Positions 6,140 to 42,430 of a DNA stretch of 64,000 nucleotides are shown piece after piece. This stretch comes from a virus, in the IMG/VR virus record IMGVR_UViG_3300028805_000116. One strand, written 5' to 3'. Each line of letters opens with the position of its first letter. Within the stretch, counting starts at the first letter, position 1. The translations under genes and the position numbers were made by a program. The notes under the pieces are model-generated. The model was not told the DNA's origin, made no database searches, and was given only the letters and a program-made list of their open reading frames with translations.

Positions 6140-8293
6140 ATGGCATATGGGTTTTTATATAAAGACTTTGATGCAGACAGGGGGCTATTTTATAATGGAC
6201 AGCCACAGAACTTGAAATATGTCCTAGACCCTAAAGAAGCAGAACAATGGTATGAAAAACACAGAGAATTAATGGTGTCTGTGAATATTAAACGTCCACC
6301 AGATTTAGAAATCCCTGTTCAGATACCATTAGGTACAGGTAAACTCCTTAAACAAGATATAGATGAAAAGTTTTTATCCTTTATCACAAAGGGAGCTGTA
6401 TCAACCCGTATGGAGTTCATCTTATCAAGATTTATGGATAACTATCACCTTGGTACAGATTGAACCTTTTACAGGAGAGAGAAGGAAGATGTATCAGCTT
6501 TAGATAGTACCAGAAATGTCCTGGCACTGTGTATGATGAAAGATATTATCCTATGAATATTTAGGGTTACTCCTTTAAAAATCCCAGCCTGAAAGAATAA
6601 AAAGAACCTTTGAAAGATGGAATATATTGAATGGGATATTGGTGAAGACTTTTCTATTGACTACGAGGTTCAATGAACTAAGTTTACCACAAACCTATTC
6701 TGAGTATATAAGCCTAAATTATTTGAAGCTATGCTTGCAGATACCTGAAGGACATTTAACGGATTCTGTTTACAGCGTTGGCAGATGATGGTTTGGCTCT
6801 TATCAGGTTGAGTTACCTATGTAATTTGACCAAGGTGATGAGGTAAATCATTGTATATTAACGGAGATAGTGCGGGGTATTTACTTAAAGAGATAACAGA
6901 TAGTAATGAACGTATTCAAGAATTTTCAGTTCTCTATATGGGATTATCGCAAAAGCAGAACGCACCATATATGGTTTACTCTCAACAAATGCTTAATAAT
7001 CTTATTGATTTGCCGAGTTTTTGTAACAAGTTACCTGATAGTACAGGTTTATACATCCTCGACGGAGATAAGCAGAGAAAACTTGAATATGTTACAACTA
7101 ATCAGAATGACCCTACTAGGTCAAGACGTACAAGAAAATTCGTTTGAGATGAAGCAGACTATCTTGACTGGGACTATGTAGGTACAGCTATGGCCACAGC
7201 AGATTCATTAGTTACATTAATCTCTACTATCGGTCCTGATACACAAGCTTGAAACTTCTATAAAGGTTGGCTTAATGCTTATAAAAACCAAAGAGATTAT
7301 GAACCTATAGATGTACTTATTCACGATATATGGATTAAATACTGAATGCACCTATGTAAAAGTAGAGCTGATTATATAAAGAAAATTAAGAATTGAGATT
7401 TTGAAAAAATGAGAGCCGAGTTTATTCAGCGTCGCCCAGAGGTAGCCTTACATTTTACTATGGATGATGTTGAGTTTCTTACAGAGGAACAGAGAACAGC
7501 TCAGGTAATTAGAGTTCTAAACGCTAGATGATATGACTATATGCTTGCCGAATACTATGGAGAATATTCCACAGACCAAACTGTATTCAATATTGAGTGA
7601 GTGCAGCTAGCTTGTCCTAGCGATTGTGACTATTGGGTAGTTGGTTATGATGAAGCCGATACCTTCGACAATCCTTGATTATGTATCCTTTGATGTAAAG
7701 ATTGAAAGTATTTCATTAAGGAAACATATAACTTAGCAAAGGAGAGTAATGAAAGATTTGCTAAGATGAAGAGTATTATAACCGATTACAAAAATAAATG
7801 AAAGCCAGTTTACCTTGTGCTTGACGCTTCTAGGTGATGGGCCGCAGCAAGGGAATTATGAATGTTATGAATGCCTTGTGATATGCTTATCAAATGGACA
7901 GGTAATGTTACTTATCAACCTTGAGCTAGGCATAATGTAGGTAAACAACGGTGTATAGAAATGATTAGAAGCAGCTTCTTTGATACCAACCTTATTCATA
8001 TTGACCCAGCTTGTTATGGAGAATGAGGATTAGTTGAGGAGTTGTGACACTTTAAAAAATATAAATCTTCAGCTAGAGGTGAGAAGAAAATTCACGATGA
8101 CCAGGTTTCAGGAATGATGCTTGTGCTTTATTTCGCCTGGTTCCACGACCAGCTAGCAACTAAAGATGTGAATAAACTTTGAAATCAAAAGACTAATGCA
8201 CAAATAGCTGAATGACTTTGGGCTGAGAGATACCAGAAGCCTAAAGAGACAACTTGAGATTTTCTCTCAAATTTAAAGAATAATTTATTCTAA
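6140..8293 (+). CDS. terL: Terminase large subunit, ~717 aa. Walker A VIGPRGGGKS with three TGA-encoded glycines. Walker B KFVGDEADYLDWDY. C-terminal nuclease-like region HDDQVSGMMLVLYFAW.
   Basis: Single frame 6140-8293 joins track ORFs 6128-6463 and 6851-7147. Only TGA interrupts it. Terminates at TAA 8291-8293. Confidence 0.8.
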
Positions 8294-8334
8294 AGTTATA
8301 AAAATTTGCCACTTTTATATAATCTAAATATAGG
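8292..8334 (+). promoter_or_regulatory. Conserved promoter-like motif aaagttata...ttatataatctaaatatagg, copy 1
   Basis: Near-identical motif also found at 24511-24556 and 42386-42430, each immediately upstream of a gene start. Confidence 0.5.
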
Positions 8335-8338
8335 AAAA

Positions 8339-8641
8339 ATGTTATTAGAAAGAAAACAAGAGGTTTTAAAAACCTTAGCAGAAAATTATGTAATTATAAG
8401 AGACGAGGATTGAGAACTCCTCTGTCTTCTCGGAAGAGATGATGAATGATATTTTATCTATTCCCTTGAACAGTACAATATTACCAAATCAGACGCAGAG
8501 GCTTTGTTAGACAAGGCAGCCTGAATTGCGCTAGTTCCAGTGGTTGATGAGAAGATTAAATTACAGTATAAAGAAGAACTAGAAAAACACGAAGCTAAAA
8601 TTAGAAACCAGATAGAGGATGATTACTTTGAAGAGGAATAG
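8339..8641 (+). CDS. Hypothetical protein, 100 aa (MLLERKQEVLKTLAENYVIIRDEDGELLCLLG...). Ends with TAG.
   Basis: ATG 8339, TAG 8639-8641, 3 in-frame TGA. Confidence 0.55.
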
Positions 8642-8664
8642 ATTTATATCATAGTATTTTCTAA

Positions 8665-11733: not shown

Positions 11734-11743
11734 TATTAATTTA

Positions 11744-14700
11744 ATGGCAGTACAAGATTGTGATGATTTATCAAATATTATTGCTATATGAATATTGTCT
11801 TGAGATGATGATTTAGCTAAAGAGATAGTTAGGCTATCCACACAAAAGAGAGATTCGTTAGTTCGTGCTGGTAAACTTAAATGAGAAGATGCTGTGGAAG
11901 AAGCTACTTGACGAAGTGCTCACGAACTTGAATTAAAAGCCAATTCTGCTGATATAGAGCTCAGAGCTATTGTTCAAGCCAAAATCTTAACTTGAGAAAT
12001 TTGAAATGCGGAAGCGTATGTTGCTTTAGCAGAACAGATAACAAAGTCAGGATGAAGTATGTCTCAACAAATTAGTCTTTTAAATAAATTAAGAAGTGCT
12101 AAGGTTACAGATTTACAGGATATTGCTAAACTACGGTGATGAGCTTATAAAAATTATCCAGCTAAAGCTAAAAAAGAAATGGAAGAAGCTATAGCATCTA
12201 CTATTTCGGCTAACTATAGTATTAGAAAATATTCTGACTTTATGAGTTGAGAAGTTTCTGATTTAAAGACACAACTTAAAAATAAGAAGATAACTCAAGA
12301 ACAATATGAAGAGCAGATGAAATGACTCCATAAGAAGGTTATGGATAGAATAAACGCTTGAGAAAATCCAAAAGATTTTGTCCCTATTGATAAAGAATGG
12401 GATACTATAAAAAGAATTTACTCTACAGAGAATGTAGATTCTGATGCTATTACTGAAGTATTAGAATCCAGATGAAAAGCCTGGGTTCAATATGTAGCAG
12501 CTAGAGAATTATTAGCTGACTGAATGGTTGACGATGAATTACTTAAGGCTTTCGAGTCTTTGTTTGAAATGGATAATTTAGTAGGAGAATTAACTATTGA
12601 TGATATTGCTAAATTCTGAAAATGAGACTTAGATAAATTATTAGCCTTAGCCTTTACAAATACAGAACAATTATATAAAGATTGAATGCTAAGAGAGGCT
12701 TATAGAGCTAAACTTGTTGAGGTAACTTCTTGAATGAAAGTCTCTAAAGAGAATATAGCTAAAGCTACATCTATTATGAATACGATAGGTTTTGCTGAAC
12801 AATGAGCTTCCTTTGCTGATATAGCTACAGCTGACGCCGCAGCGCGTGCGGCTAGAAAGAGATGATTTAAGGTAAAAGATTGAAAAACTTTCTTGAATTC
12901 CTTAAAGTCATTCTTGAGAAAAGAAGAGGATAAAATGTTTGACTGACCTATTGTTATCGATTGAATAGAGATGACGGCTAAGGATATTATCCAAATTATA
13001 TACGATATAACTTGAGATGAAAATATCCTTAAGTTAATTAGAATAGGGTTTTATTCAGACGAAACTATATTATCTATTGCTACATCTAAATTGTTTAATG
13101 ATTCAGATGATGCTGCAAAGAAAATATTAAAATTATTTTCTAAGGCTTGAGATTGAAACACAATTGCCAATACTAGGAATATAGCTTTAAAAGCTATCAC
13201 TTGAGAAGAGATTAGAGAATGAGCAAAAATTGGATTCTTTAATTTTAGAAAAAATCTCTATTTTAAAGATGAATTAGATAGTGCTAAAGCTGAATTCTAT
13301 GATAAGTTAGCAGATAGAAATAAGATGAAGGTAGATTCATCTGATATTGAAGATATAACTCTAGATACTGATGATGCGGACAAAATAGCAGACAAACTAA
13401 GAAAATTTAAATGAGGGTATATTATTGTAAACGATGCTAGATATAAGACTAATAAGGCATTTAATGACGCTCTTAATAAGGTTAATAGTGAAATCAAGAA
13501 TGAAGAGGATAAGATAACTTGTATCTTTCCTAGATGATGAATGTCCTCTAGTTTTGTTATGGAATGAAAACAATTATACTTTAAAACTACAAACGCTAAA
13601 ATTTTCGATAATGTAGCTTGAACTATATCTATTCAATCTATGTGAAAATCTAGGCCGACAAGAGAAATTATTGCTAAAGCTTTTGAGGCTAAGACAGGTA
13701 AAAATGGAGATAAACTTAGATACCAGGCTAGTTATACTAAATGAGTATCTGATAGTCAATGAAGAAAACTTTCAGACCAGCAATACGAATATTTTAAAAA
13801 TTCTGTTGTGAGAGATGAGAATTGAAATTTAACCCCTGTATATCATTGAACTGTGGATAGATTCAATATCCCAGATATGTGAAAATCTAAGTTTGCTGCA
13901 CATTGACCTTGAATGTATTTTTCCACAAGTAGAGATGCTGCAGAAACATATTCTAGATTAAAAGATAATCGCTGGAACCCATTTAAGAAGCGTAGAATAA
14001 TAGAGGCATATCTTGATATTAGAAATCCTATAACTGAAGATACTGTTTGATTCGATGATGCTTGGTTAAATGAATTAGAAGCTCTATGATATATTATCGA
14101 TAGAGATATGGTTAAGAGACAGAAATGAAAGGTAAAAGATATATACAATGTTCTTTATATGTTTCAAGATAAAAAGAAGCAATGACAATTTGTTACAGAC
14201 TTTAAAAGGGTTACTTGATTTGATGGTATCAGAATAGATATGCGTTGAGATGAAAAGTATTGGATAGTATTTGAAGCTAATCAGGTAAAGTATGTAGATA
14301 ATAAATTACCTACAAGTAAGCCTAATATGAAGTATCAGGGAAGGGACAGTAATTTATTGTTTATAGAACAACCTACAGAAAAAGAAATAGATGATTACTT
14401 ATCTGAAAACAACGTGTCAGATATATTATTAAAGAGATTTTGAGAAGCTAAAAGTTTAGACGAGTGATTATTTATTACAAGGGATTGAAAAATAATTTCT
14501 TGAAGATATAGACCAGATATATATCCAGTTAATAAAATTTGGGATGATGCGTGATACAAATTAAATTTAGAACATCCTACTGCTATAGAAACTGCCGTAT
14601 TCGATTTGTGGAAAAATGTGGGGAAGGCTGACACGTATGAAACTGCATCTAAAATGCTTTTGGATAGAGCGATGGAAAAAGAATGATTAATCCGCATTCG

Positions 14701-17700
14701 CCCAAGAATTTTGTCTGATTGAAATGAGCTTATTATTACTATAGCTAGTAAAGAATTAAGCCCACAACAAAAGGCTGTTCTTTCGGAATATATTTCAAAA
14801 TTTAAAGAAGACTTTAGGGAATGAACTAGATGACAGATTACAGTAGAGGCCCAACGGACAGACAATAAGGGGATGTACCCTGGCGAGACTATTAATGTAG
14901 GCTTAAATACCAACATTAACGATATTGATAAAGTATTAAAAGAAAAAATAAATTCTCAAATTAGTGAGCATATTCCTGATGAACAAGTTTTAAAAAATAG
15001 AGCTAAACAAAAGGAGACTTATTGAGAAGGAATATCATTAATAAGGCTATGAGAAAAACAACCATCATTTATGAGACGTTTAGATGATTATGTTTCTCAG
15101 CAAGATGTAGCAGCAACTGATGCTATGAAGGCGCAGATGTTTACAAAAGATAGAACTGTTCAAGAAATAGCTGATGCTTATTGAGTATCTGTTGAGTTTG
15201 TAAAATGAACTAATATGATTGCTTGAGTTGAGGCTTATTGAGCGTATTGAGATGGTATTATCTATTTCACAGATATGGTTAAGGAGAGTACAGCTCCACA
15301 CGAATTGTTCCACGCCATATTTGATATGCACGTAGGTAAAGAACAACACGATAAATTACTCAAACAATGAAGTAAACTCTTCAATGTTAGTGAAGACGAA
15401 ATGGAGGAAATAATGGCAGATAGTTTTGCTCATTGGTTTAATACTTGAGAGTTTATTTACTGAGACGAACTTATAAAGGCTGCTAAAAAGAAGAGACCTA
15501 ATAAAGCAGAAAAATCATTTATAAATAAGGTATTAGAAGTCTTTAAAGACTTAAAGAAATGGTTATGATTAATGGATGACCATAGGGCTGAAGTTAAACA
15601 GATGTTCGACGATATGGTAAATATGAAATATCTACCAGACGCTTGAAAAGCTGTTGAAGCTACGGAAGCTATGATTAAATATAATGATGACTTGGAGAAG
15701 GCTGCTATAAAATACTACTGACAATTACTTTGAGATTACCAAGAAGACTTATCTCCAGAATATATTGAAAGGATTCGCACGAAACTTTCAGAAAAAACTT
15801 GAATTGATTTTAAATCTTTTGACCAAATCCAAGATAAGGCTCTACTATGGCAAAAGGTTGATGAAGCTTTTGTTGTAGATAAATTAGTTTCAGGTAGATA
15901 TGATAAAGAGATTGTAGATGTAGACAATTTAATTAATTGAATAGAGAAACTTACAGATAAAGAGTTAGAGGATGTTATATTCAAAGATTTATGAGTTTTA
16001 AGTAAATGATGAAAGGTTGTAGGTAGAGATACTATTGATGCAATAAGAAACGCATATATAGATTATAAAACTGCCTGAAATGCCGTAGATAGTTTAATAG
16101 CTAAAGGTAAACTTACAGCTTATATACATTGAACTGAGGCGCAGAATGTATCTATGGAAGATATAAGGGCAATATTCCAGAATTGAACATTCGCTCAAAA
16201 ATATAAAGAAATGTTCTTCCCTAATCAAAAACTTACAGCAAAAGAAGAACAAGAGATAATAAAACAAATCAATGATAATATATTTGATACTTTATCAATT
16301 CAGTTTGCTGAAAATTTAGTATCAGCTTGATATGAATTGCCTTTGATAAATATCAAAACATTTATGTATGACTATTTAAATTGAAAGTTAGACTTAAATA
16401 ACAAGTTTGTTGAAGCATTTCTTTATAAAAATAATATTCCATTTTCATCCGATTGATTAAGATGAATTGTAGATAGTTTAATGCCATCAGAATTAAACTT
16501 CAACTATAATTTCTCAAATTATTCATATTGACTTGGGCAAAGGCCTCACGTCTGAGAAAAGGCTGTGTTCAAGGAAGTTGATAATAGGTTTGTTATGGAC
16601 AGTTATTCAGCTTTAGCCTGAATAGAATTAGCTGCTAAGTGATGAATTCCTGAAAATGAGGAAAGGAAAATATTAGAAGAAATCCTTACTAAATATGTAA
16701 ACGAGGTAATTAAATGAGTCAAAGATTGAACGTTAGATTTCAAATGAGCTCAAGAATTAAAACAAGAAGTATGATATGCTTTAGATATGTTTGAACAGGA
16801 TATATTATTGCCTAAATATGGTATATTCTTATCTCCTCAAGAAAAGCAATGACTTATAGGAATGAAATATGACTTGCCTATTTGAGTAAAATGACAAAAC
16901 ATAACTAATGTGACTAAGCAGCTAAACGACATAAAACAGAAGCTCTTAAATAAATATGATAATACGCTATGAAGTATAGTAGAAAATAATGATATTAATG
17001 AAGCAATTCTTAAATGAATTAAAAGTGAAGATGAAAGAATACAAAAGAAAATAGATGCTAGAAGAGATATGTTAGCTGAGAGGTGATGAGTTATCAGAGA
17101 GGTTAATTGACAATATTTGGTATATAATGCTAAACAGGCATTAGAATATGCTTTAGAAGATTTGCCTCCAAGTATTAATTGATTAGAATGACTTAGAGTG
17201 CTATGAAAAGAATGAATTGATAAATTATCTAATCAACAGGCATATGCTTTACTTAGATATATAGAAGCTGCTAAAAGCCTAGATGCCACAGCTTGATATG
17301 CTATAGAGCTTATGTATAAACAAAACCCTATGCTACTTCAATATAATTTCTTTGAAGCATATAGAGTATGAGACCAATGAATTCCTAAAGCATTAGAATG
17401 AAATTCATTAAATTTTGACAAACTATTATCTAGATTAGAAAATACAGCTAAGCTTGATGAAACATCTAAGAAGAATATATTTGAATGAGTTATTAATAAG
17501 TTTAGAAAACAATGATATGTTACTAATGATGACTTAGATGATATTATTGATAAGTGAATAAAAGAAGCATACGCAACATATAAACAGTCGCATATGTCTC
17601 CTAAAGAGATAAAGAAAGCCGTAAATAAAATGAAGAATATTTACAAGAAAGCTTTCGCTCCTTACACTTATTTAAGAGATATTCCTTCTTGAGGAACTGT

Positions 17701-20700
17701 AGATTGAGTAGAATTCAGGAATATAAAATCTAAAGTAAGGGAGGCTATGAAACAGCAATACAATCAAGCTATGGAAGATTTAAAGTCGGTATGAATTACA
17801 AATACGGATTGAATTCAAGATACTATATATCTCACCCTTCCAACTTGACAGAAGATGTCTCTTAGAGATGCTTCTACATTAGATGTTGATAGTTGGAAAA
17901 AATGAATATTTAATGATGAAAGTGTTTATGTAGCTTGAGCTGATGAATTATGAGCTGCTTGAAAGAAGACTGTAGAAGAGCAAAAGGAGTTCAGGAAAAC
18001 TATGGTTAACGAATATGACTCGACATTACAGACTATACTGAACCAATCTCAGTTTATTAGCGAATCAGAAAGAGCATTACAAGGTTCTATTATGAGTGAC
18101 GTAAGGGCTATGTTAAGACAATGAAATCTTACAAACTTAATAGTAGATGCTTTAGATGCCGTAAGTTGACTTAATGAAGAGGCTGCTAGATGAATAAAGG
18201 ATTATCTTATCTGATGGAAGTGAAACGTTTCATTCTGAAAATGGAAGTCTTCTCAGATTATAGAGAGAAATGAATTAGTAAAGAAAGCATACGCACAATA
18301 TTATGCTATGGATTTGTCTAAACTTAATAAGGTAACTCCTTGAACAAAAGCAGAAGACTTAGCTTTAAGATTAGCAAGATACTTTAAAAATTTGGAAAGA
18401 TTATTAGGTAGTGCAGATTGAGTAACTTGATGTACTACAAGTAATCAATTAAATAGAGCGTTCTTCCATATAGGTGAAGTTGTTATGAATGTGGATAGTG
18501 TAAAGTGAATTTTCTGATTATTATCTGCGGTAGAACAAAACCAGATATTAAAGTTGTTTAAGTTTGCTAAGTGAGATTTAAGAAAACAAGCTGAGGTATT
18601 TATTCGTAAAGGTAAAGGTAATTTTACTGAGAGCCTTTGATGATATAGAGACTACGCAGAAGATATTAGTTGAATTACTAGAGATGAGTTCAATGAGATT
18701 TTCTGAACATCATTTAACGAGGACGATTTTAAGAAAATACTTCAATGACTTACAGGTTTCTCATTGGTATGATGAGTTACTAAACCTGTTATGAAAGCAT
18801 TGAATTTCTTGAGCTGAACTAATTTCATATTTAGAGCTGCAATGTCTTACCCTTGACAGCTACTTACAATTCCTTTACAAAGCACAGCATATTTCTTAAA
18901 ACAGATATGATTTGAAAGAGCTTTGGATATTGATAGCTTATCTGATATTGACGAAGTTAGAGTTCATTATTGAATTTTGGATTGAGCATATAACGAAATT
19001 AATTGGTTTAATAAAAAATATAGGGTTAGTCCAGATGATGTTAGAGTAGATAGTTACTATAATAGGTACTGAATCCCTGATGTAGAATGAATTTATAAAA
19101 CTACATCCATAGAGAGCAGTGATGATTACATAAATATGTATGCTAAAATTAATAATCAAACTGCATCAAGTATCAGTTCTACAAATAAATGGATAAGACA
19201 ACTAGACCCATATAAAGATAATGCAAATAACATTATAGACTGATTATTCGCTAGAAACTTTAAAAACATAGCGTTCCAAAAAGCTATAAGACAGAATGAC
19301 TTTATGCAATTTTCTTCAGCAAAAGAGTTCTTAGCCTTTATGGAAGACCCTACGGTATGAGGTTCTGTAAAGCAAAAACTATTAGATAGAGTTGCTGCTT
19401 ATTCAGGTAGAAACTTTAGAAATATCCTTTGATTAGGATTCTGATGAATTGATAGAGCTGTATGATGAAGTGGATTTGGAAACATAATGTACTGACTTAT
19501 GCAGATGTTTAACTTTAGATGAAGTTGGTGACAGAATATATTTAAACAAGCTTGAGCTGCTATTAAGACTTGACTAAAGATAGTGAAAGCAAATCCTTGG
19601 TTAAGTAGAGAATGAAGAGATGCCGTTGGTAGATATATAGCTACACAGCCAGAATTTATGAATTTTGTCTGAGCTTTATTTAATGACTTAAAACGAAGTT
19701 GGAGGTTACAAAGATTCCAAGATAATTGAAGATGGCCAGATAACGAAGATATGTATGTGACTACAGAGTTCTGAGATGTATTTGACGCATATTCAGCTTT
19801 AGATTTTATAGATTACTTAACAGAATCTTTAAGTCTTACTTCACAATTATTCCAGTGAATACAATCATTCTGACCTGCTAGACCAATATTAGAATGAGTA
19901 GAAAGCGCATATAAATCATATATGGACCCTACAATTTATAAAGATACATTCTGAATTTGAGCTTTCTTTAATGCTTTATGAAAGAACTTCTGAAGACAAT
20001 GGAAACCACATAACTGGATTGCTAAAGCATTATGAGCCTTAACTACAGATTGACCTGAGGCATTCTGGACATATGTACAAAATGAATGGTATAAATTATC
20101 ATTTGGTTCTGTAAGGTATATGGTTAATGAAGATAGTAATTCTTATGGATATACTTTCGAAATGACTTGACAACAATGATGAATTCCGTCTATTATAATG
20201 TGAGAATGAAAACAAGGTTCTGATAAAAATTTCTCTTATGAAATAGATAATACAGAGACTTGGGAGACTATAAAACAATTATTTAGTAGCTGAAACTCTT
20301 GGGACGATAGACTTACATATGCCTGAAATCTTTGAAAAGCATTTGTTAACTGAAGTCAGTTCTTTAGTTTATGGAAGAATGCTTGAAAGGCTTGGAATAG
20401 GAATGCTCCAAGTTATTATACAGCAGATGATTTAGCAGATGTTTTACAAAATACTGAAGCTTGATTAGAGTTTTACCAGAAATGAATTGTAACTCCTAAA
20501 ACAAAAGAAGAAGCTGAGATATTCTTTGATACAATATTAGAAAATTCTAAGTTCCGTCCTTGAAGTAGTAATTTTACTAAATCATTAATCAATTATGAGG
20601 ATTATTGACATATGAATGGTAAAGAGAAATGAAATGAAGCTGATGCTGAAATGGAACTTTGGCTAGACCATATGAAACACGTAACTGATGACCATTGAGT

Positions 20701-21952
20701 TATAAGAAAAAATTGAAGCGAGGAGACGGTTGACCCATCTTGGAATAAATTAATTAATGCTGTTAGAAGTTGAGCTTACAATGGAACTTATACAACAAAC
20801 TTGATTTATAACTATGCTAAGACTTGGTTAGACAACCATTCGTCTGACCCTAACTATCAGCTTTATCTTAAACTCTTATGACAATGACAAGCTCATAAAT
20901 TAATTGAGTCTACACAAGACGATATTATAAAAGCTTGGAATGCTGGTAAGAAATGAGTTGATAATAAATGGACGGAGACTGAGTTCAAAAACGCCTGATT
21001 AAGGAGAGATATGTTATTATCTATGTGAAACACTCCTTTACCTTGAGATACTGAAACATTCTTTGATAAACTACAAGTTCTAGATGAGGATAATGCCACA
21101 GTTGCAGCATTACAAATCATTCAGAACCAAGCAAAAGAATGAGATAGAAAAATTATTGATAAGTTCTTTAATGTAAAAGAGAATGATGATTGAACAAAGT
21201 CTGTTACATTAAGAAGACAATATGAAAGTACATTAACTCAGATTTGAGCTGTTGCTAAAGCTATTGATGAATGAAATCTTGAGAGGGCAATATCTGAATC
21301 TTCTATTCTTACAAATATGTATAAGAACCAAGACCCATCAGGAGCTGTAACTGCTACATTGATTGATAGTGTTGTTAATAGAATATACGATACAGATAGT
21401 TTTTCTCCTGAGCAAAAGCAAGAAGCTATTATAGCATTATTCCATCATAATAAAGAATTCATACAAAAGAATCCAGAAAAGCTAAGAGAATTATTATGAG
21501 ATGAATATGATACTTATGCTAATTATATGAATCAGATGCTTTATCAATGGGATTGAGCATTATTGTCTACATTAGAAAGTATGCAGACTAGCTGAAAAGG
21601 TTCATCTTGAACTGCTAAGAAAACTAAAGCTACTTCTAGTGAATTGAAGAAATTAGCCGCCTCTCTAGGTAATGAATGATGAGCTAGAGGAACTTGAACT
21701 GTATGAAGCACAAAATCTTGGGTACCTGTTATTATTAAGTGAGCAGACTTAGTAAAGGAGTTATGAGTAAAATGATATACTCCTAATAAGGTATCATTGT
21801 CTATAAATGCTTATAAGCCTAAGATAGATTTAAGTATAGCTAAAGATATTAACAGAAAAGTTAAATGACCTAAGACACAACAGATATCAAACAAAAAACA
21901 ATTAAGTAAACTTGAAGATAAGGTTACAAAAGCTACTGAAGCAGAAAGTTAG
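11744..21952 (+). CDS. Giant protein, ~3402 aa, polyvalent-protein-like. HExxH zincin-like motif PHELFHAIFDMH at about 15296-15330. H-Y-E-class ADP-ribosyltransferase-like motif VYHGT...GPGMYFSTS near 13850-13950.
   Basis: Single frame from ATG 11744 to TAG 21950-21952. Same frame mod 3 as track ORF 21317-21499 which lies inside it. No TAA/TAG over 10.2 kb, >150 in-frame TGA. Confidence 0.6.
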
Positions 21953-22095
21953 TTAGTACCATAAACAAAAATAAAATAAGACATACAAAATATCTCAGAT
22001 GGAGTATTCTCCATCTTGAGAGTTGTATGTGTCTTAAATTATTTTTCATAACGAAAGTACCTGATATTTCTTTTATATTTTTATGCCAATAAATT

Positions 22096-24461: not shown

Positions 24462-24471
24462 TATGGAAAGA

Positions 24472-24510
24472 AAATCTGGGTTTAGAACTCAGATTTTTCT
24501 TTTTATTTTA
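24472..24510 (+). terminator. Rho-independent terminator (aaatctgggttt-aga-actcagattt + T-run)
   Basis: 10-bp stem with one mismatch followed by ttctttttatttt. Confidence 0.5.
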
Positions 24511-24556
24511 AAAAGTTATAGTAAAAACCTAAAAATTTATAATCTAAATATAGGAA
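24511..24556 (+). promoter_or_regulatory. Conserved promoter-like motif aaaagttatagtaaaaacctaaaaatttataatctaaatatagg, copy 2
   Basis: See 8292-8334. Confidence 0.5.
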
Positions 24557-24723
24557 AGGTTATTGGATACCTTTCTGTGAGTGATGCGTAGACGCATAAT
24601 GGTGATGGTGGTTGAATGGATTAGCTAGCTATGTGGGAAGTATCTGAGTTGGTAGGCAGAGAAAGTCTATATAGACAGCATAGCTAGTATATCTATTCGC
24701 ATTTATTTCATTTATTAAAAATA
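24557..24723 (+). other. Long, relatively GC-rich, structured 5' leader. Inverted repeats atgcgtagacgcat and gctagctatg/catagctagt. Contains a 14-codon mini-ORF MRRRIMVMVVEWIS.
   Basis: 167 nt between the promoter motif and the scaffold-like gene start, with nested inverted repeats. Confidence 0.3.
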
Positions 24724-25722: not shown

Positions 25723-27228
25723 ATGGCAGGAACACAAAGTTGTAATCCTTGTGATGCTACTGGATTAGCTGAGAAAAGTGTAGCTTTTCAGGACATCCTA
25801 AACCCATTGTACGCTAATGGTAGAGTTCTCGAAACTTGGGGACAGTATGAAGATTTCCTAAGATATGAGACAATTTTCTTCGATGTAGTACCTCAAAAAG
25901 ACCCTACAACAGGAGAAGTATATGTAACTTATAAATTCAAAGATGGTTTAGCTGCTTCTAGCGAACTAACTTTGTTAGACAACGAATGTAAAGTTGGATG
26001 GTATGAACCAAAAATCTGTGGAGAAGAAACTGAAATTACTGAAGTTAACGGAAAAGAAATTACTGTTGCTTCTTTGGCAAAATTAGGTGGAGTTAACAGA
26101 GATTCTACAATCCTAGTTACTAGACAAGGAGGAAATCCAGTTAATGGACTTTACATTGAATCAGTTGCTTTAGTTGATGAAACTGACCCTAAAGGACCTG
26201 GAGTTATCACTTTGAAAGAAGCTCCTTCAGTTCAATTAGCCGCTGGTGACAAAGTTAGAAGAGGTGCTTACTTAAGAGACAGAAACTGTAATACAGAAAT
26301 CTTCAATCCAGTAAGACTTGGAGATATGGATTACTATTCAGCTTTCTTCAGAACTATCTCTATCTCTCACGAATTCAATTGGTGTGATTTGAACAAAGAC
26401 TACCTTATCTCTGGAGGAATCCAAGCTATCGTAGATGCTATGTTCAGAAAAGGAGATGTAGAAGCTATTAAAGAATTCTTACACGCTGCTTTCTATGACA
26501 GAAACATTCAAGTTGGTGATTATAAATGGGAGACTATGGGACTATTCCCAGCTCTTGCTGCTGCTCAAGACGGAGGACTTAAGATTGCTTTCGACCTTGA
26601 AGGATGTTGCGACCCAGCCGCTTCTGAATGTACAAATGCTAGACATCAAATTCAAGCTTTCTTAGATATCGTTATTAATAAAGCTATGATTTCTGGAATG
26701 TACAAAAACAACGTAACAGTTGCTATGAACAAAAAAGCTATGGAAGGACTTCATATGATGCAAGGATATTTCCAAGATTATGGAAATGTTGGATTCTTAG
26801 ATGGAAGCAATTATGACATCGATGTTGGATTACCAAGAATTAGATATGCTGGTATTACTATCACTTTCAAATATCTTCCAATCCTTAACGATTTCGACTT
26901 CTCTGTAATGTTGACAATCCCTGAAGAAAAAGTTGGAGTATTCCAACCTAAATATACTGTAGTTGATACTAACGGTAAAGTTGTACAAAACGCTAATATT
27001 AACGGATACATCTCAAAAGGAACTCCTATGTTGAGATACTTACCAGATAATCCTTACAACATCTGAGCTCAGCTTGGAGAATGTAACAAGATTGTTGGAG
27101 ATGTTAAATTCGCTGTAGTATGGATGTGAGTTGATAAAGGAGCTTACAGATTCATTAAGAACTTTGGAAAATGTGTATTGAACAGTTGTCCAGTATGCGG
27201 ATTAGATGATGTAGATTTCTTAGACTAA
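25723..27228 (+). CDS. Putative major capsid protein, ~501 aa
   Basis: Track ORF 25723-27066 has no TGA over 447 codons. It continues through 2 TGA to TAA 27226-27228. Follows the scaffold-like gene and is followed by a strong terminator. Near-absence of TGA suggests a highly expressed gene. Confidence 0.45.
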
Positions 27229-30695: not shown

Positions 30696-32307
30696 ACAAA
30701 GAAAACCACAAAGTGGTGCACAAAGATTTTGAACTGGAAGGGTAGCCAATACAACCACTGGTTCAACTACAACACAAGCTGTTTATAGAATTCCTACAGG
30801 GAATAAAAGAGATTGTGATGTAAGAAATTTCGAAGTTACTTGAACTTCTCCAATTGTTGTAGCTATCGAATGAGAGAATATCTATAGAATTTCTCTTGAT
30901 ATGGCTGCATTAGAAAGCGCCATAGAAGATATGAATTTAGACCTATCTAATGTTACGTTACAAACAGTTAATTGAGATGTAACTTTTACAGGTAACATAA
31001 CTGCAGAAGGAGAATTTACTTGAACTACAATCACAGCTACAACTTGAAATATTACTAATATAGTTTCAAATTCAATCACTGCAGATGCTGTTTCTACAGA
31101 CGATTTAAATACAGACTGACTTACTGTAACTAATAATGCTACAGTAGGTGGAACTCTATGAGTGGAGGGGGCTACAACATTAGGTAGCACATTAGCTGTT
31201 GATGATGTAATCTTGGCTAATTCAGATTTAACTGTAGCTTGAACTACAACGACTAACTCAATCGTAGCTAATTCTTGAAATATATCAGATTTAACTTCTA
31301 CTTCTATTTCAACTTGAACATTAGATGCTTCAACTTCTATTTCTACAGATTGAACATTAGATGTGACTTGAGCTTCTACTTTATGAGAAGTTAGTGCTAC
31401 AAATATTTCAGCTTCTTGAAATGTTACAGCTGGAGGAGACTTAACTGTAACTTGAGCTTCTACATTTACAGGAAATGTAACAGCTTGAAATATTTCTGCT
31501 GAAGATGTTTCTGTAGATGATTTAACTGTTACAGGTAATTCAACAGTTACAGGAACTCAGACAATTAATTGAGCTACAATCATAAATGATACTCTTACAG
31601 TAACTTGAGCTACTAACTTATGAGGTAATGTATCTACTACAGGAAACTTATCTGTAGCAGGTAATTCAACTATTACAGGAACTCAGACTGTTACTGGAGA
31701 TAGTATCTTTAGTGGAAATGTATCTGTTACAGAAAACTTAACTGTTGCAGGTGATGCTACTGTTACAGATGACCTTACTGTAAACGGTACTACACATTTA
31801 AAAGGACTTGAAACTGATTGAAGTGTTGATATTGATGGAACACTTAGAGTAACTTGAGCTATCGATGGATTGAATTGACTTACAGTTACAGGTCAAGTTG
31901 AAAGTGATACAGTTAGAACAGGTGAGGTAATTGCTAATGAAGCTAGAATTTCTGAGGGATTATATCTTTCTCAATGAGCTGAAGCCCCTGATTTTGTTCT
32001 TCAATCTGAAAAAGGACAACCTAATTGAGTTGCTCCATTAGATGCTAATGGACAGATTGATACAAGTTATTTACCTCCTGTATATACTTCTGCTATAGTT
32101 AAGATGTGAGTATGAGTATTCTCTAACTCAGACACATCTGTTGTAGTAGATGCTGATATTAAAGCAGATAGCTTCGTTATCATATCTAACTATCAAGATA
32201 TCACTTGAGACTTAAATGAAACTATTAATGTATGACAGCTTACTGTTGTAAGTAATCAAATAGAAACTTGAAGTTATAAATATATTGTAGTTAATGCTTT
32301 GAGTTAA
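30688..32307 (+). CDS. Tail fibre protein, ~539 aa. Beta-helical G/T/S repeats LTVTGNSTVTGTQT. C-terminal PLDANGQIDTSYLP motif.
   Basis: ATG 30688 to TAA 32305-32307. Repeat glycines are TGA-encoded. The xLDxNGxIxxxxLP motif is typical of phage fibres. Confidence 0.6.
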
Positions 32308-32334
32308 TTTTATTTCCTAATCTAAATACACAAT

Positions 32335-39538: not shown

Positions 39539-39550
39539 AAAAGTCTGATT

Positions 39551-39621: not shown

Positions 39622-39657
39622 AAGACTAGTCTGATTTATTTCTTATGTTTAATAATT

Positions 39658-40347
39658 ATGGCTATATTTAATACAGTTTATGGAGGTACAGGATGAGGAT
39701 GGAAACCTAGTGCATCTGTAACTGCACGATACAAATTTGCATTAGATACGAAAGATTATTCTTGAAATAATAGGAATGCAACAGAGCAAACAAGTACACT
39801 TTCTTATGCGATGGATGGTAACTTAGTCTATGCAGTATTTAATAACACTATGCTTTCTGCGAGTAATTGATTAAGTAGTGCTAACTATACAGCATCTGCT
39901 TGGATAAAATCTAGTGAGGTAAAGACTTGATATGTGCTAATTACTTGATGAAGTAACCACAATATGCAACCGTTATTAGTTGGTATATCTAGCGAAACAA
40001 ATAACAAATATATCTTCAAATCTCAATATTGGATATGAAGCCCTAGTTATTGTCCACCTATTTGAACTGCACCAGATGAATTAGTAATACCGCTTAATCA
40101 ACGAAAGCTAATTACATCAGTAAGAAAAGATGGGGTTTGTTATCTTTATGTAAATTGAAGTTTATGATATTCAGGTTCTATCACAACAGAATTAAGAACA
40201 GAAGAATGGCATATATGAAACCAATGGTCTAACTCTACACTTAATTTTAATGGTTGAGTATCAAACTTAATAATAGACCAATCTCCACGAACAGCAGATG
40301 AAATCCTAGCATATTATAACCAAACGAAATCTAACTACTGACTTTAA
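39658..40347 (+). CDS. LamG/ConA-like jelly-roll protein, 229 aa. Tail fibre/receptor-binding accessory candidate. Ends ...AYYNQTKSNYGL.
   Basis: ATG 39658 to TAA 40345-40347. Confidence 0.45.
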
Positions 40348-40377
40348 TCAGACTTTTTAAATTCTTTAAAGACAGCG

Positions 40378-41634: not shown

Positions 41635-41643
41635 TCAGATTTA

Positions 41644-41714
41644 TCTCCCATCGTTTAAGTCTAGGAACACCATCAGTAAGGATGGAAATGAAAGGTAAGG
41701 TCTTTCTGGGAGAT
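41644..41714 (+). ncRNA. tRNA-like cloverleaf element, copy 2. Acceptor tctccca/tgggaga, anticodon-arm ccatc/gatgg, T-arm gaaag/ctttc. Flanked by direct repeats aatcagattta.
   Basis: See 39551-39621. Covariation preserves the pairing. Confidence 0.4.
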
Positions 41715-41921
41715 TTAATCAGATTTATTTCTTTTCTTTAACCAATGACCGTAACTCTTACTTTTACCCTCTTTATAGTTCTGTGTATCCTAGTGGGGTA
41801 TGAGATATTTAGAAAATAATAAAAAGCTGAATGACTAAACTATTTGAGAGAAAAGCAACGCTACTAGATACAAGTCGAACTATATATTAACTCAGCCTTT
41901 TACCCCTTCCTTTAACCTAAT

Positions 41922-42056
41922 ATGCTAAAATTACTTCTCCTTCTTATATTCTTAGTCCTATTTGTGATAGGAATCATTAAGATAGATTTATTTCTATTTA
42001 GAGTAATTGTCGCTATAAGCATTATAGCTTTAGTGGCAATATTAAATTATCTTTAA
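41922..42056 (+). CDS. Small hydrophobic membrane peptide, 44 aa
   Basis: ATG 41922 to TAA 42054-42056. Almost entirely L/I/V/F. Confidence 0.35.
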   Translation: MLKLLLLLIFLVLFVIGIIKIDLFLFRVIVAISIIALVAILNYL

Positions 42057-42075
42057 TCTTTACATTATATAAACA

Positions 42076-42384
42076 ATGACAAATATTTTCATTTGGCTTA
42101 TTGCTATTTCTGTAGTAATCACTAGCATAGTTTCTTTTGCTAAGCCAGCTTATAAGAAATTCGCAGGAAAATTTGCAGTAAGTATTAACATTCTTTTAAG
42201 TTTTATCCTTTGAGAAGTAGCTTCTTTCTCAGTAGCTCCTCTATTAGGATTGGAATTCAATTCAGGACTTCTTATTCTTTTAGGGTTAGCTCTTTGAACT
42301 GGGTCTAACTTATGGTATGACCTATGGGAAATTGTTAAATGATTAGGAGTTAAACTTAAGAAGGGGATTGAAGAAGTGAAATAA
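42076..42384 (+). CDS. Membrane protein, 102 aa, two predicted TM helices. Holin/lysis-associated candidate.
   Basis: ATG 42076 to TAA 42382-42384. Confidence 0.4.
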
Positions 42385-42385
42385 G

Positions 42386-42430
42386 AAAAAGTTATAACAA
42401 AACCCTTAAAATATATAATCTAAATATAGA
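42386..42430 (+). promoter_or_regulatory. Conserved promoter-like motif aaaaagttataacaaaacccttaaaatatataatctaaatatag, copy 3. Followed by a 9-bp stem hairpin at 42445-42481.
   Basis: See 8292-8334. Confidence 0.5.

What the first reader, a model, noticed from the sequence alone, without database searches (positions are those of the whole stretch)
8292..42430. Phage-specific promoter-like consensus AAAGTTATA-N10-16-TAAAAWWTATAATCTAAATATAG repeated upstream of three plus-strand transcription units
Nearly identical 40-45-nt motifs occur at 8292-8334 (after terL), 24511-24556 (after the portal terminator, before scaffold-like/capsid-like) and 42386-42430 (before the lysis-region genes). A weaker copy (cctaatctaaataca) lies at 32312-32332 before a tail fibre. 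Two copies are followed by hairpins in the leader. Conservation is far higher than a generic sigma-70 promoter needs, suggesting recognition by a phage-encoded factor (see the sigma-like gene at 54153-54710) or a phage RNAP.
Basis: seen in the sequence. Interest (0 to 1): 0.6.

Follow-up and report, generated by a model that had tools for sequence, protein, structure and literature searches.

The report
Phage-specific promoter class, code-25 phage
A 42-base two-box sequence recurs five times in front of gene blocks in an uncultivated phage of Absconditabacteria (UGA read as glycine), and it is most likely a promoter class read by the host RNA polymerase with a very divergent phage-encoded sigma-like protein, a familiar phage strategy seen here in a virus group whose transcription signals have not been described.

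Summary
AAAGTTATA-N17-TATAATCTAAATATAG occurs exactly three times on the + strand (8292, 24512, 42388), where 3e-8 exact matches are expected by chance. The spacer is always 17 nt, not N10-16. Two further copies lie on the - strand (4376->4335 and 58977->58936). All five are intergenic and co-directional with the next gene, and none is in coding DNA. The window is a TGA=Gly (code 25) phage whose relatives bin with Absconditabacterales. Relatives keep the motif at the same syntenic sites: boxes 91-97% conserved against 53-63% for spacer and flanks. Covarying 5' hairpins begin at the motif's terminal ATAG, 7 nt after TATAAT. No phage RNA polymerase was found. The "sigma-like gene" (54150-54710, -) is predicted to fold as a two-domain sigma2/sigma4 factor, but it passes no curated sequence threshold. 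It lies behind an ordinary TTGACA-type promoter, a second class confined to the - strand. I am about 85-90% sure these are promoters and about 50% sure that g46 reads them. The main rivals are the host primary sigma, alone or with a phage activator. This is a new member of a known kind (compare phiEco32 and 7-11). Two, perhaps three, copies are followed by terminator-like hairpins before any gene, which remains unexplained.

The parts
8292..8333 (+). Site 1: AAAGTTATA (8292-8300), 17-nt spacer, TATAATCTAAATATAG (8318-8333). Box 1 overlaps the terL stop codon (8291-8293). The g12 ATG is at 8339, which gives a 6-9-nt leader.
   Evidence: The site is conserved after terL in L009, L020, L024, L028, L030, L032, L034, L041, L044 and L014.
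24512..24553 (+). Site 2: box 1 at 24512-24520 and box 2 at 24538-24553. It lies between the portal gene g16 and the scaffold-like g17 / capsid g18, just after a terminator-like hairpin (about 24470-24505).
   Evidence: It is conserved in L001 (chosen by capsid homology, not by motif) and in L010, L013, L018, L019, L022, L025, L029, L031 and L042.
42388..42429 (+). Site 3: box 1 at 42388-42396 and box 2 at 42414-42429. It starts immediately after the g28 stop codon and lies upstream of g29.
   Evidence: It is conserved directly upstream of the g29 homolog in 14 motif-selected loci, even where the upstream neighbour differs. The motif copies in L048 and L049 (chosen by g46 homology) lie at the syntenic position by gene order but lack the site-3 leader.
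4335..4376 (-). It points towards g7-g1, which include DUF6291 g6 and DnaB-like g5.
   Evidence: It is conserved in L032 and L020, which were not selected for this site.
58936..58977 (-). Fifth, weaker copy: TAGGTTATT-N17-TATAATCTATATATGG, upstream of g55.
   Evidence: It was not found at the equivalent place in L048 or L049, so whether it functions is uncertain.
4449..4466 (+). Degenerate box-2 copy (TATAATCTAttAATATAG) in front of g9-g10-terL, with box 1 only weakly recognisable. The ortholog in L044 is a perfect 16-mer.
32271..32328 (+). Relic or variant: AAGTTATA (32271-32278) and TAATCTAAATA (32318-32328) lie 39 nt apart, 6 nt before the g23 ATG.
   Evidence: The profile search does not detect it.
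24550..24723 (+). Site-2 leader: a 5' hairpin that begins at the motif's ATAG, followed by a conserved structured RNA of about 150 nt with an invariant GAGUUGGUAGGC loop.
   Evidence: Fold z-score -3.2. 9 of 35 pairs carry compensatory double changes. No Rfam match.
42426..42493 (+). Site-3 leader: hairpin 1 (42426-42446) starts at the A of ATAG. Hairpin 2 (42447-42481) has a 15-bp stem and a CCCCC loop and is followed by a U-rich tail, so it looks like a terminator placed ahead of g29.
   Evidence: z-score -7.2. Ten relatives fold identically, with unrelated stem sequences and an invariant loop.
4177..4338 (-). Site-A leader: a 5' hairpin (4335->4317), then a long hairpin plus an intrinsic-terminator-like hairpin (4201->4182, then a T-tract) ahead of g7.
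   Evidence: Terminator-like hairpins with different stem sequences occupy the same place in L032 and L020, read from the sequence.
54150..54710 (-). g46: a 186-aa candidate phage sigma factor, with predicted sigma2-like (1-97) and sigma4/LuxR-type HTH (115-178) domains.
56757..56790 (-). Ordinary TTGACA-N16-TATAAA promoter-like site in front of the g49-g41 operon that contains g46. It is one example of the second promoter class; others are at about 58002, 50383, 1280 and 1802, all on the minus strand.
   Evidence: Equivalent CTTGCA-N16-TAnAAA sites occur in L048 and L049.

Best explanation
The motif is a phage-specific class of bipartite promoters. Box 1 (AAAGTTATA, core GTTATA) occupies the -35 position. 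Exactly 17 bp downstream lies a TATAAT-type -10 hexamer that runs on into a conserved CTAWATATAG. Transcription is predicted to start at the A or G of the terminal ATAG, and three of the four strong copies put a 5'-terminal hairpin there.

The promoters head the replication operon (site A), the post-terminase block (site 1), the scaffold/capsid/tail block (site 2) and the g29-g38 block (site 3). In one relative a copy also heads what appears to be a small non-coding RNA.

Proposed mechanism, all inferred:
1. On infection, the host holoenzyme with its primary sigma reads ordinary cTTGCAw/TTGACA-N16-TAtAAa promoters on the minus strand.
2. One of those operons encodes g46, a very divergent two-domain sigma-like protein.
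3. g46 binds host core polymerase and directs it to the AAAGTTATA-N17-TATAAT promoters.
4. At sites A and 3, terminator-like hairpins in the leader add a further layer of control (attenuation or antitermination).

Shown here: the sequence facts, positions, orientation, conservation, RNA covariation and the predicted fold of g46. Not shown: transcription itself, the start sites, and which protein reads the motif.
For: 1. Statistics and placement. There are three exact 25/25 matches where 2.7e-8 are expected. The window holds five copies in all, every one intergenic and co-directional with the next gene, and none in coding DNA even at E<50.
2. Geometry. The spacer is 17 nt in every copy, including the weak one, which is the optimum for sigma-70-family promoters (established knowledge).
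3. Phylogenetic footprint. A pattern scan found 34 metagenome stretches and 2 MAG contigs, and all but two (L016, a likely chance match, and L023, too short to test) carry homologs of the window's genes. The motif sits at the same three syntenic junctions, and several contigs carry 2-3 copies.
4. Unbiased conservation. In copies not selected by motif (L001, L048, L049 x2, L032, L020), box 1 is 97% and box 2 is 91% conserved, against 63% for the spacer and 53-62% for the flanks.
5. Start-site support. Hairpin 1 begins exactly at the A of ATAG, 7 nt after TATAAT, in all ten site-3 leaders, which share one fold with differing stem sequences (RNAalifold counted a double compensatory change in 1 of 6 pairs). 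The site-2 leader shows 9 of 35 covarying pairs.
6. A separate conventional promoter class. It has TTGACA/CTTGCA -35 boxes and occurs only in minus-strand intergenic regions, including upstream of the g46 operon. So the -35 box, not the -10, distinguishes the two classes.
8. g46 sequence hints. There are repeated sub-threshold hits to sigma70-ECF and SigH models, best 2.7e-4, and a sigma-H PDB hit at E 0.036.
9. g46 is conserved across the phage family, and its most invariant stretches include the putative recognition helices.
10. Concerted variation. The TATAAT-to-TCTATT variant occurs at both sampled sites in each of two lineages, while every multi-site TATAAT contig is TATAAT throughout.
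11. Distant relatives. Those whose g46 homolog is only about 25-29% identical lack the motif, and two of them (L046, L051) carry a different element (AAAGAGCAA-N11/12-TAATCCCTATACAATWAT) after terL and before the g29-equivalent leader.
12. Precedent. [quoted passage not shown]
Against: - There is no transcript data, so the start sites are predictions.
- g46 passes no curated sigma model. Pfam finds only GerE, in 6 of 41 members. hhalign against RpoE aligns 17 columns at probability 0.5. Distant homologs have no sigma Pfam hit.
- The C-terminal domain of g46 fits a LuxR-type activator equally well.
- Nothing ties g46 to the motif except co-occurrence.
- The motif stays 25/25 identical while g46 diverges to 56% identity. 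That is compatible with a host factor reading it.
- The -10 part is a perfect primary-sigma consensus (TATAAT) in most lineages.
- The TCTATT variant does not exclude primary-sigma recognition. The register TAWTCT (motif positions 29-34) keeps A at -11 and T at -7 in both variants (my reading).
- Concerted change could also come from recombination between promoter copies.
- The host's own promoter consensus could not be examined, because the two MAG contigs recovered are phage DNA.
- About 15-20% of the genome lies outside the window.
Confidence: 0.5

Rival explanations
1. These are strong promoters read by the host primary sigma alone. TATAAT (or TAWTCT) is an ordinary -10. The AAAGTTATA box and the phased A-tracts of the spacer act as a lineage-specific -35 or UP-like element of the Absconditabacteria polymerase. 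The high similarity reflects selection for strength and recombination between copies.
For: - The -10 is a perfect TATAAT at a canonical 17-nt distance from the upstream box, with the predicted start 7 nt downstream.
- The motif is unchanged while g46 drops to 56% identity.
- The host's promoter consensus is unknown.
- The alternative register TAWTCT keeps the critical A-11 and T-7 in the TCTATT lineages.
Against: - The same genome has a separate set of conventional TTGACA/CTTGCA-N16-TAtAAa promoters. This shows what a primary-sigma -35 most likely looks like here, and GTTATA matches TTGACA at only 3 of 6 positions.
- Box 1 is 97% conserved at a fixed distance, so something reads it specifically.
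- The two classes are segregated by strand and region.
- The A-to-C and A-to-T changes are concerted at all sampled sites of two lineages.
Confidence: 0.22
2. Sigma appropriation or a class-II activator. The host primary sigma reads the TATAAT -10, while a phage DNA-binding protein bound at AAAGTTATA replaces -35 recognition, as MotA/AsiA do at T4 middle promoters. The protein could be g46 acting as a LuxR-type activator rather than as a sigma.
For: - The promoter combines a consensus -10 with a non-canonical box at the -35 position.
- At sequence level the g46 C-terminal domain is best described as a LuxR/GerE HTH.
Against: - The g46 N-terminal domain matches sigma region 2 in the predicted fold, and full-length sigma factors align across both domains.
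- No MotA or AsiA-like protein was detected by Pfam or PHROGs.
- The TCTATT variant is a poor primary-sigma -10 in the standard register.
Confidence: 0.15
3. Promoter of a phage-encoded single-subunit (T7/SP6-like) RNA polymerase. The contiguous 16-mer ends in TATA|G, like ...CACTATA|G of T7 and SP6 promoters (the T7 and SP6 sequences are from my own knowledge).
For: A contiguous, near-invariant 16-nt block ends in TATAG and is followed by G/A-rich initial sequence. This degree of identity between copies is typical of single-subunit polymerase promoters.
Against: - No RNA polymerase domain was found in any window protein.
- None appears in the precomputed Pfam columns of about 200 kb of related loci.
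- The 3402-aa protein is a polyvalent ADP-ribosyltransferase protein, not an N4-type virion polymerase.
- A strictly conserved second box at a fixed 17 bp is not a feature of such promoters.
Confidence: 0.04
4. Not a promoter. It could be an operator for a dimeric repressor (GTTATA...TATAAC-like dyad), a recombination or module-boundary sequence, or a packaging or replication signal.
For: - Box 1 (GTTATA) is roughly the reverse complement of the first hexamer of box 2 (TATAAT).
- ATAATCTA-like units recur as tandem and inverted repeats in the AT-rich 1108-1775 region.
- The gene upstream of site 3 differs between relatives, as expected at module junctions.
Against: - Every copy has the same orientation relative to its downstream gene on both strands. 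A symmetric operator or recombination site would not need that.
- In the TCTATT lineages the dyad partner box 1 does not change.
- Covarying RNA hairpins start precisely at the motif end.
- The 17-nt spacing and the TATAAT are promoter hallmarks.
Confidence: 0.04

Closest known systems
Phage-encoded-sigma promoters of coliphage phiEco32 and Salmonella phage 7-11 (PMC4331800)
   Same: - A few highly conserved copies per genome.
- A + strand structural/packaging cluster and a - strand 'functional' cluster that encodes a small, divergent sigma.
- Early genes served by host-type -35/-10 promoters.
- Phage-specific promoters heading both middle (replication) and late (structural) units.
   Different: - No detectable sequence homology between g46 and those sigmas (no PHROG hit).
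- The motif here is clearly bipartite with a 17-nt spacer and a consensus TATAAT, whereas the 7-11 study searched with a 9-bp window sized to an extended -10 element (PMC4331800).
- No anti-sigma gene has been identified here.
- The host is a code-25 CPR bacterium.
- Nothing here is tested experimentally.
Bacillus phage SPO1 gp28 and gp33/34 sigma cascade (own knowledge)
   Same: Phage sigmas replace the host sigma on host core polymerase and read bipartite promoters with phage-specific -35 and -10 boxes at a spacing of about 17 bp.
   Different: - The box sequences are unrelated.
- The SPO1 -10 boxes are not TATAAT-like.
- No homology to g46 was found.
T4 middle promoters (MotA box plus sigma-70 -10, with AsiA) (own knowledge)
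   Same: A normal TATAAT-type -10 is combined with a phage-specific box that takes the place of the -35 element.
   Different: - The MotA box is centred at -30.
- No MotA or AsiA homolog was found.
- g46 has a sigma2-like N-terminal domain in the model.
Lambda PR'-tR' late promoter with Q antitermination (own knowledge)
   Same: At sites A and 3 a strong promoter is followed within about 55-190 nt by an intrinsic-terminator-like hairpin before the first gene. The extra L049 copy looks similar by eye.
   Different: - No Q-like protein was detected.
- The terminator hairpin carries an invariant CCCCC loop that has no lambda counterpart.
- Regulation by antitermination is purely inferred.
T7/SP6 single-subunit RNA polymerase promoters (own knowledge)
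   Same: A contiguous, almost invariant block ends in TATA followed by G at the presumed start, and there are few copies per genome.
   Different: - There is a second conserved box at a fixed 17 bp upstream.
- No such polymerase gene was found.

Membership tests
Sigma-70-family bipartite promoter (-35 / 16-18 bp / -10) | Two conserved boxes separated by 17 +/- 1 bp | tested here: met
   The spacer is exactly 17 nt in all five window copies and in every related copy.
Sigma-70-family bipartite promoter (-35 / 16-18 bp / -10) | TAnnnT-type -10 hexamer 6-8 nt upstream of the transcription start | tested here: inconclusive
   TATAAT is present, and covarying 5' hairpins begin 7 nt downstream. No transcript 5' ends are available. 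The TCTATT variant fits only in the shifted register TAWTCT.
Sigma-70-family bipartite promoter (-35 / 16-18 bp / -10) | Intergenic location, co-directional with the downstream gene | tested here: met
   5 of 5 copies meet this, and there are no coding-region hits at E<50.
Primary-sigma (sigma-A/sigma-70 consensus) promoter | TTGACA-like -35 hexamer | tested here: not met
   GTTATA matches TTGACA at 3 of 6 positions. A separate class with TTGACA or CTTGCA exists in the same genome.
Sigma-70 protein family (for g46) | Passes curated sigma domain models (Pfam Sigma70_r2/r4, NCBIfam sigma70-ECF) | tested here: not met
   There are only sub-threshold hits: GerE in 6 of 41 members, and sigma70-ECF at best 2.7e-4 and 20.6 bits against a cut-off of 42.9. 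hhalign against RpoE gives probability 0.5.
Sigma-70 protein family (for g46) | Two-domain sigma2 + sigma4 fold joined by a flexible linker | tested here: met
Sigma-70 protein family (for g46) | Binds core RNA polymerase and confers promoter specificity | not testable with these tools
   This needs biochemistry.
T7-like single-subunit RNAP promoter | Cognate single-subunit RNA polymerase encoded by the phage | tested here: not met
   No RNA_pol domain was found in the window's ORFs of 120 aa or more (about 49 of 63 kept) or in related loci. About 15-20% of the genome is unseen.
T7-like single-subunit RNAP promoter | Single contiguous block of about 20 bp (-17 to +6) with no separate upstream element | tested here: not met
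   A second box, 97% conserved, lies 17 bp upstream.
T4 late promoter / gp55 | TATAAATA -10 only, with no -35 element; the sigma lacks region 4 | tested here: not met
   Box 1 is conserved, and g46 has a region-4-type HTH.
T4 middle promoter (MotA/AsiA) | MotA and AsiA homologs present | tested here: not met
   No hits in Pfam or PHROGs. Remote homologs could have been missed.
Lambdoid Q-dependent late promoter | Promoter-proximal terminator plus a Q-family antiterminator | tested here: inconclusive
   Terminator-like hairpins follow sites A and 3. No Q homolog was detected.
Known RNA families (for the leaders) | Match to an Rfam covariance model | tested here: not met
   There is no hit at gathering score in the window. 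Only chance-level hits appear at E<=1 in the three leaders.

The most novel reading that the evidence does not exclude
g46 founds a previously unrecognised, extremely isolated branch of sigma-like factors (18 representatives among 1.84 billion protein clusters, none passing a sigma model). These factors re-programme the RNA polymerase of Absconditabacteria, CPR bacteria with a reassigned stop codon, onto a dedicated AAAGTTATA-N17-TATAATCTAWATATAG promoter class. The promoters are coupled to a second, unknown control layer: conserved leader terminators with an invariant CCCCC loop, which would need a novel antitermination or RNA-binding factor.
Probability: 0.3. Interest if true: 0.6.

Novelty: new member of a known kind. 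Interest (0 to 1): 0.48.

Why it matters
Phages of Absconditabacteria and Gracilibacteria are known only from metagenomes. The one dedicated study I found does not mention promoters, sigma factors or RNA polymerase at all (PMC10746230). This phage family is also absent from INPHARED and IMG/VR.

What the result offers:
- A defined, conserved promoter class with a candidate cognate sigma gives the first testable picture of transcription control in a phage of a code-25 CPR host.
- The motif is a practical marker for finding and orienting such genomes. A 22-base pattern retrieved 36 stretches, of which one is a likely chance match and one is too short to check.
- It gives a compact promoter/sigma pair that could be tried in vitro or in a heterologous host.
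- The contrast with the TTGACA/CTTGCA class indirectly suggests what the host's own promoters look like.

It does not change any general principle. Phage-encoded sigmas with low-copy, highly conserved promoters are textbook.

Tried and rejected
- **Table-11 ORF calling** was misleading. TGA is sense and encodes Gly, because the terL Walker A reads GPRGGGKS only with TGA=Gly. All proteins were re-derived with code 25.
- **The generic sigma-70/terminator scan** is uninformative in 32% GC DNA: 81 sites found against 71.5 expected.
- **Capsid searches** in INPHARED phages and IMG/VR found nothing, and neither did three motif scans of IMG/VR.
- **terL against PDB sequences** gave no hit.
- **tRNA and Rfam scans** of the window found nothing. 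Permissive Rfam scans of the three leaders gave only chance-level hits.
- **An N4-like or crAss-like virion RNA polymerase** was considered for the 3402-aa g14 and rejected. The only hit is an ART-PolyVal domain.
- **A dimeric-operator reading** of the GTTATA/TATAAT dyad was rejected, because all copies share one orientation and box 1 does not co-vary with the TCTATT change.
- **MAFFT/RNAalifold** failed on the length-variable second hairpin of the site-3 leaders. Folding the leaders one by one resolved it.
- **De novo repeat search** in the first distant loci (L005, L045-L047) gave nothing convincing. The AAAGAGCAA...CCTATACAAT element appeared only after L051 was added and rests on 2-4 instances.
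- **Linking g46 sequence variants to the TCTATT promoter variant** was not possible, because no locus covers both.
- **The host promoter consensus** could not be derived. The single genome-collection scan returned only phage contigs binned into an Absconditabacterales MAG.


Full report
**1. The observation**

- When aligned, they share AAAGTTATA, then exactly 17 nt, then TATAATCTAAATATAG: 25 specified bases, all identical, at 8292-8333, 24512-24553 and 42388-42429.
- From base composition, 2.7e-8 exact matches are expected in 64 kb on both strands.
It came from counting part of the A-rich spacer as consensus.
- A one-mismatch search and an nhmmer profile built from all copies found two more, both on the minus strand: 4376->4335 (AATGTTATA-N17-TATAATCTAAAAATAC) and 58977->58936 (TAGGTTATT-N17-TATAATCTATATATGG). 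Nothing else scored in the window, even at E<50.
- A degenerate box-2 copy (TATAATCTAttAATATAG, 4449-4466) precedes g9.
I treat it as a relic.

**2. What kind of genome this is**

- Under the standard bacterial code the window has only 6 ORFs of 150 aa or more. With TGA as a sense codon it has 53, the longest 3412 aa.
- TGA makes up 5.6% of + strand codons and supplies about two thirds of all Gly codons.
- The terminase P-loop reads VI-X-PR-XX-GKS, which is a Walker A only if X is Gly. This is genetic code 25.
- Two motif-bearing contigs are binned in a Candidatus Absconditabacterales MAG. Both are phage DNA by homology to the window's genes.
- Code-25 Absconditabacteria phages are known from metagenomes (PMC10746230), so such a host is the most plausible. 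It has not been shown.
- Gene map and annotation:
  - The minus-strand block g7-g1 holds a DUF6291 protein (g6) and a DnaB-type helicase (g5).
  - The plus-strand block runs from 4.5 to 50 kb. It holds g9, an HNH endonuclease, terL, g12, g13, a 3402-aa polyvalent protein with an ADP-ribosyltransferase domain, portal, scaffold-like g17, capsid g18, tail and fibre genes, and g29-g38.
  - A minus-strand block of small genes runs from 50 to 64 kb and includes g46.
- Most proteins have no family hit.
- The family is absent from INPHARED and IMG/VR. It is common in ENA and Logan assemblies, with contigs up to about 82 kb.

**3. Placement**

Intergenic gaps of 50 nt or more sum to 5.4 kb, about 8% of the window. 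All five copies lie in such gaps (site 1 in the 45-nt gap after terL), each pointing at the adjacent downstream gene:
- site A towards g7 and the replication genes;
- site 1 between terL and g12, with box 1 overlapping the terL stop codon;
- site 2 between the portal gene and g17/capsid, just after a terminator-like hairpin;
- site 3 right after the g28 stop codon and before g29;
- the fifth copy before g55.

So the motif is not specific to the plus strand, nor to structural genes.

**4. Conservation in relatives**

- A degenerate 22-base pattern retrieved 34 metagenome stretches and 2 MAG contigs. All but two (L016, a likely chance match, and L023, too short to test) encode homologs of the window's proteins, and several contigs carry two or three copies.
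- The copies fall into the same three syntenic classes, each recognisable by what follows: the g12 start codon, the site-2 leader or the site-3 leader.
- Because those loci were selected by the motif, I also used loci selected in other ways:
  - L001, chosen by capsid homology (81% identity);
  - L048 and L049, chosen by g46 homology (67% and 56%);
  - site A in L032 and L020, which had been selected through site 1.
- In this unbiased set, box 1 is 97% and box 2 is 91% conserved. The spacer is 63% and the flanks are 53-62%.
- More distant relatives have no copy: L005 (capsid 54% identical), L045-L047 (terL 40-64%), and L050 and L051 (g46 homolog 25-29%). In L045 and L047 the gap after terL is absent.

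**5. Promoter geometry and start site**

- The 17-nt spacing and the TATAAT hexamer are the canonical geometry of sigma-70-family promoters (established knowledge). They predict a start about 7 nt after the hexamer, at the A of the terminal ATAG.
- In all ten distinct site-3 leaders, the minimum-free-energy fold starts at or within one nucleotide of that A. AUAG pairs with a downstream CUAU, and the stem sequences differ between relatives (AGAGAAA/UUUCUCU, GGAAGAC/GUCUUCU, AGAAAGAA/UUCUUUCU).
- The site-2 leader begins with an equivalent hairpin and continues as a structured RNA of about 150 nt. 9 of its 35 predicted pairs carry compensatory double changes.
- RNA structure that is conserved from that nucleotide onward is indirect evidence that transcripts begin there.
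- At site 1 the g12 ATG follows 2-6 nt after the motif in all relatives, which gives a very short leader.
- A start a few nucleotides further downstream, using TAWATA as the -10, cannot be excluded without 5'-end data.

**6. A second, conventional promoter class**

- Minus-strand intergenic regions carry cTTGCAw or TTGACA, 16 nt, then TAtAAa. The sites are at about 58002, 56790, 50383, 1280 and 1802; the last is a 12/12 consensus.
- Equivalents occur in L048 and L049.
- The site at 56790 heads the g49-g41 operon, which contains g46.
- The generic consensus scan as a whole is no better than shuffled sequence in this AT-rich DNA. This class therefore rests on recurrence, intergenic position and conservation, not on that scan.
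- The two classes share a TATAAT-like -10 and differ in the -35 box.

**7. Which polymerase or factor?**

- No RNA polymerase domain was found in the window's larger proteins (about 49 of the 63 kept ORFs were screened; 14 small ones were not) or in the precomputed Pfam columns of about 200 kb of related loci.
- g46 (186 aa) has a weak GerE/LuxR HTH hit.
- Its family is conserved across these phages (88 hits with E <= 0.01, of which the full-length ones are 55-91% identical). It is extremely isolated otherwise, with 18 representatives among 1.84 billion clusters.
- An AlphaFold model built from 41 homologs has mean pLDDT 75 and two helical domains joined by a disordered linker.
- Foldseek against the PDB returns almost only sigma factors in the top 50, aligned over 170-250 columns. 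The best E-value is 2.5e-3, and TM-scores are low, as expected for two flexibly linked domains.
- Sequence methods stay below every curated threshold.
- I therefore call g46 a probable (about 70%) divergent sigma factor by predicted fold, not an established member of the family.

**8. Evidence bearing on a phage-encoded specificity factor**

- *For: box 1.* It is strictly conserved at a fixed distance and is unlike the -35 of the conventional class, so something reads it specifically.
- *For: concerted variation.* TATAAT is replaced by TCTATT at site 1 (L014) and site 2 (L001) of one lineage, which is 94.6% identical over 6.7 kb. The same replacement occurs at site 1 (L024) and site 3 (L035) of another lineage from one sample. 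Every contig with several TATAAT copies is uniform.
- *For: distant relatives.* L046 and L051 carry AAAGAGCAA-N11/12-TAATCCCTATACAATWAT after terL and immediately before a two-hairpin leader of the g29 equivalent. Only L051 is known to encode a g46 homolog (27% identical); the L046 locus does not cover that region. This suggests promoter and factor have diverged together, but it rests on 2-4 instances.
- *Against: motif stability.* The motif is unchanged across g46 identities of 56-100%.
- *Against: the -10 hexamer.* It is the primary-sigma consensus, and the shifted register TAWTCT preserves A-11 and T-7 in both variants.
- *Against: an alternative cause.* Recombination between promoter copies could also homogenise them.
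- *Missing data.* The host's own promoters could not be examined.
- Overall, I put the chance that these are promoters at about 85-90%, that a phage-encoded protein supplies the box-1 specificity at about 65%, and that g46 acting as a sigma is that protein at about 50%.

**9. An extra layer: terminators inside the leaders**

- Site 3 is followed, 20 nt after the predicted start, by a hairpin of 11-16 bp. Its stems are unrelated in sequence between relatives, its loop is always CCCCC, and a U-rich tail follows (window z-score -7.2).
- Site A is followed by a structured leader of about 150 nt that ends in GCCCGACG...GGGC-UUUUU ahead of g7. L032 and L020 have terminator-like hairpins with different stems at the same place, read from the sequence.
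- L049 has an extra motif copy that drives about 200 nt without an ORF, ending in a terminator-like hairpin.
- A strong promoter followed by a terminator before the first gene recalls lambda PR'-tR'. It suggests attenuation or antitermination, or alternatively small RNAs.
- No Q- or N-like protein was detected, and none of the leaders matches Rfam. This part is inference.

**10. Comparison with known systems and verdict**

- The closest described analogue is the phiEco32 / 7-11 group. [quoted passage not shown]
- The SPO1 sigma cascade and T4 middle promoters work in similar ways (own knowledge).
- The present case differs in four respects: the box sequences, the consensus TATAAT, the extreme divergence of the candidate sigma, and the host (a code-25 CPR bacterium).
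- It is a new member of a known kind.
- Interest is moderate. It would rise if the sigma/promoter pairing and the CCCCC-loop leader terminators were confirmed.

Noticed in passing
whole window, e.g. terL 6140-8293: TGA is a sense codon encoding Gly (code 25). Only 6 ORFs of 150 aa or more exist under table 11, against 53 with TGA read through, and the terL Walker A is GPRGGGKS only with TGA=Gly. Any table-11 ORF list for this window is misleading.
   Followed up: yes
25723-27228 (g18, major capsid protein): The capsid gene uses TGA for only 2 of its 46 Gly codons (4%). Other + strand genes use TGA for 67-77% of their Gly codons. Possible causes are an expression-linked codon bias, limiting tRNA-Gly(UCA), or a different gene history.
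   Followed up: partly
21967-21983, 46355-46371, 48739-48755 (+), with an inverted partner at 22030-22046: A second repeated intergenic element, AAAAATAAAATAAGACA, occurs three times exactly, where 0.23 matches are expected even allowing 2 mismatches. Each copy is followed by a hairpin and lies before g15, g34 or g38. Similar strings occur in intergenic regions of L020, L048 and L051. It could be another promoter or regulatory class, or an RNA element.
   Followed up: partly
1108-1775, and 1775-1802 (-): A 670-nt non-coding stretch lies within the window's first 2 kb, which average 15% GC. It holds three tandem TTTTTAGATAGATTAT units and inverted ATAATCTA-containing units that share the core of box 2. 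A perfect TTGACA-16-TATAAT promoter-like site and an upstream terminator-like hairpin (1849-1831) lead into it. It is a candidate replication origin or protein-binding array.
   Followed up: no
24550-24723 (+): The 5' leader of the scaffold/capsid operon is a conserved structured RNA of about 150 nt. It has an invariant GAGUUGGUAGGC hairpin loop and a long-range GCUAGCUAUG/CAUAGCUAGC helix, and 9 of 35 pairs are compensatory. It is partly recognisable in the 54%-identity relative L005. It has no Rfam match.
   Followed up: partly
42447-42493 (+); also L046:12740-12800: A hairpin with an invariant (U)CCCCCG loop and stems that vary freely, followed by a U-tract. In several relatives a GGGG(G)A stretch complementary to the loop lies 15-25 nt downstream. 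A similar 'attcccccgat' hairpin occurs in the distant relative L046.
   Followed up: partly
11744-21952 (g14): A 3402-aa 'polyvalent' protein carries an ART-PolyVal ADP-ribosyltransferase domain (residues 691-857, E 9e-19) and an HExxH motif. It is conserved, at 2700-3600 aa, in all relatives.
   Followed up: partly
L049:15115-15722 (-): An extra copy of the promoter motif drives about 200 nt without an ORF, ending in a terminator-like hairpin. This is a likely phage small RNA that the window lacks.
   Followed up: partly
L046:6303-8312; L050:1-1226; L048:3281-4369: Distant relatives differ in accessory content. L046 has a 2-kb GC-rich non-coding stretch. L050 has several tRNA-like sequences by eye; ARAGORN was not run on it. 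L048 carries an IS605 OrfB/TnpB gene inserted in the early region.
   Followed up: no
site 3 junction, 42076-42510, compared with L011, L027, L033, L036, L037: The gene immediately upstream of site 3 differs between relatives (g36, g28, g26 or g37 homologs), while the promoter, leader and g29 stay together. The promoter therefore marks a module boundary where gene order has been shuffled.
   Followed up: partly
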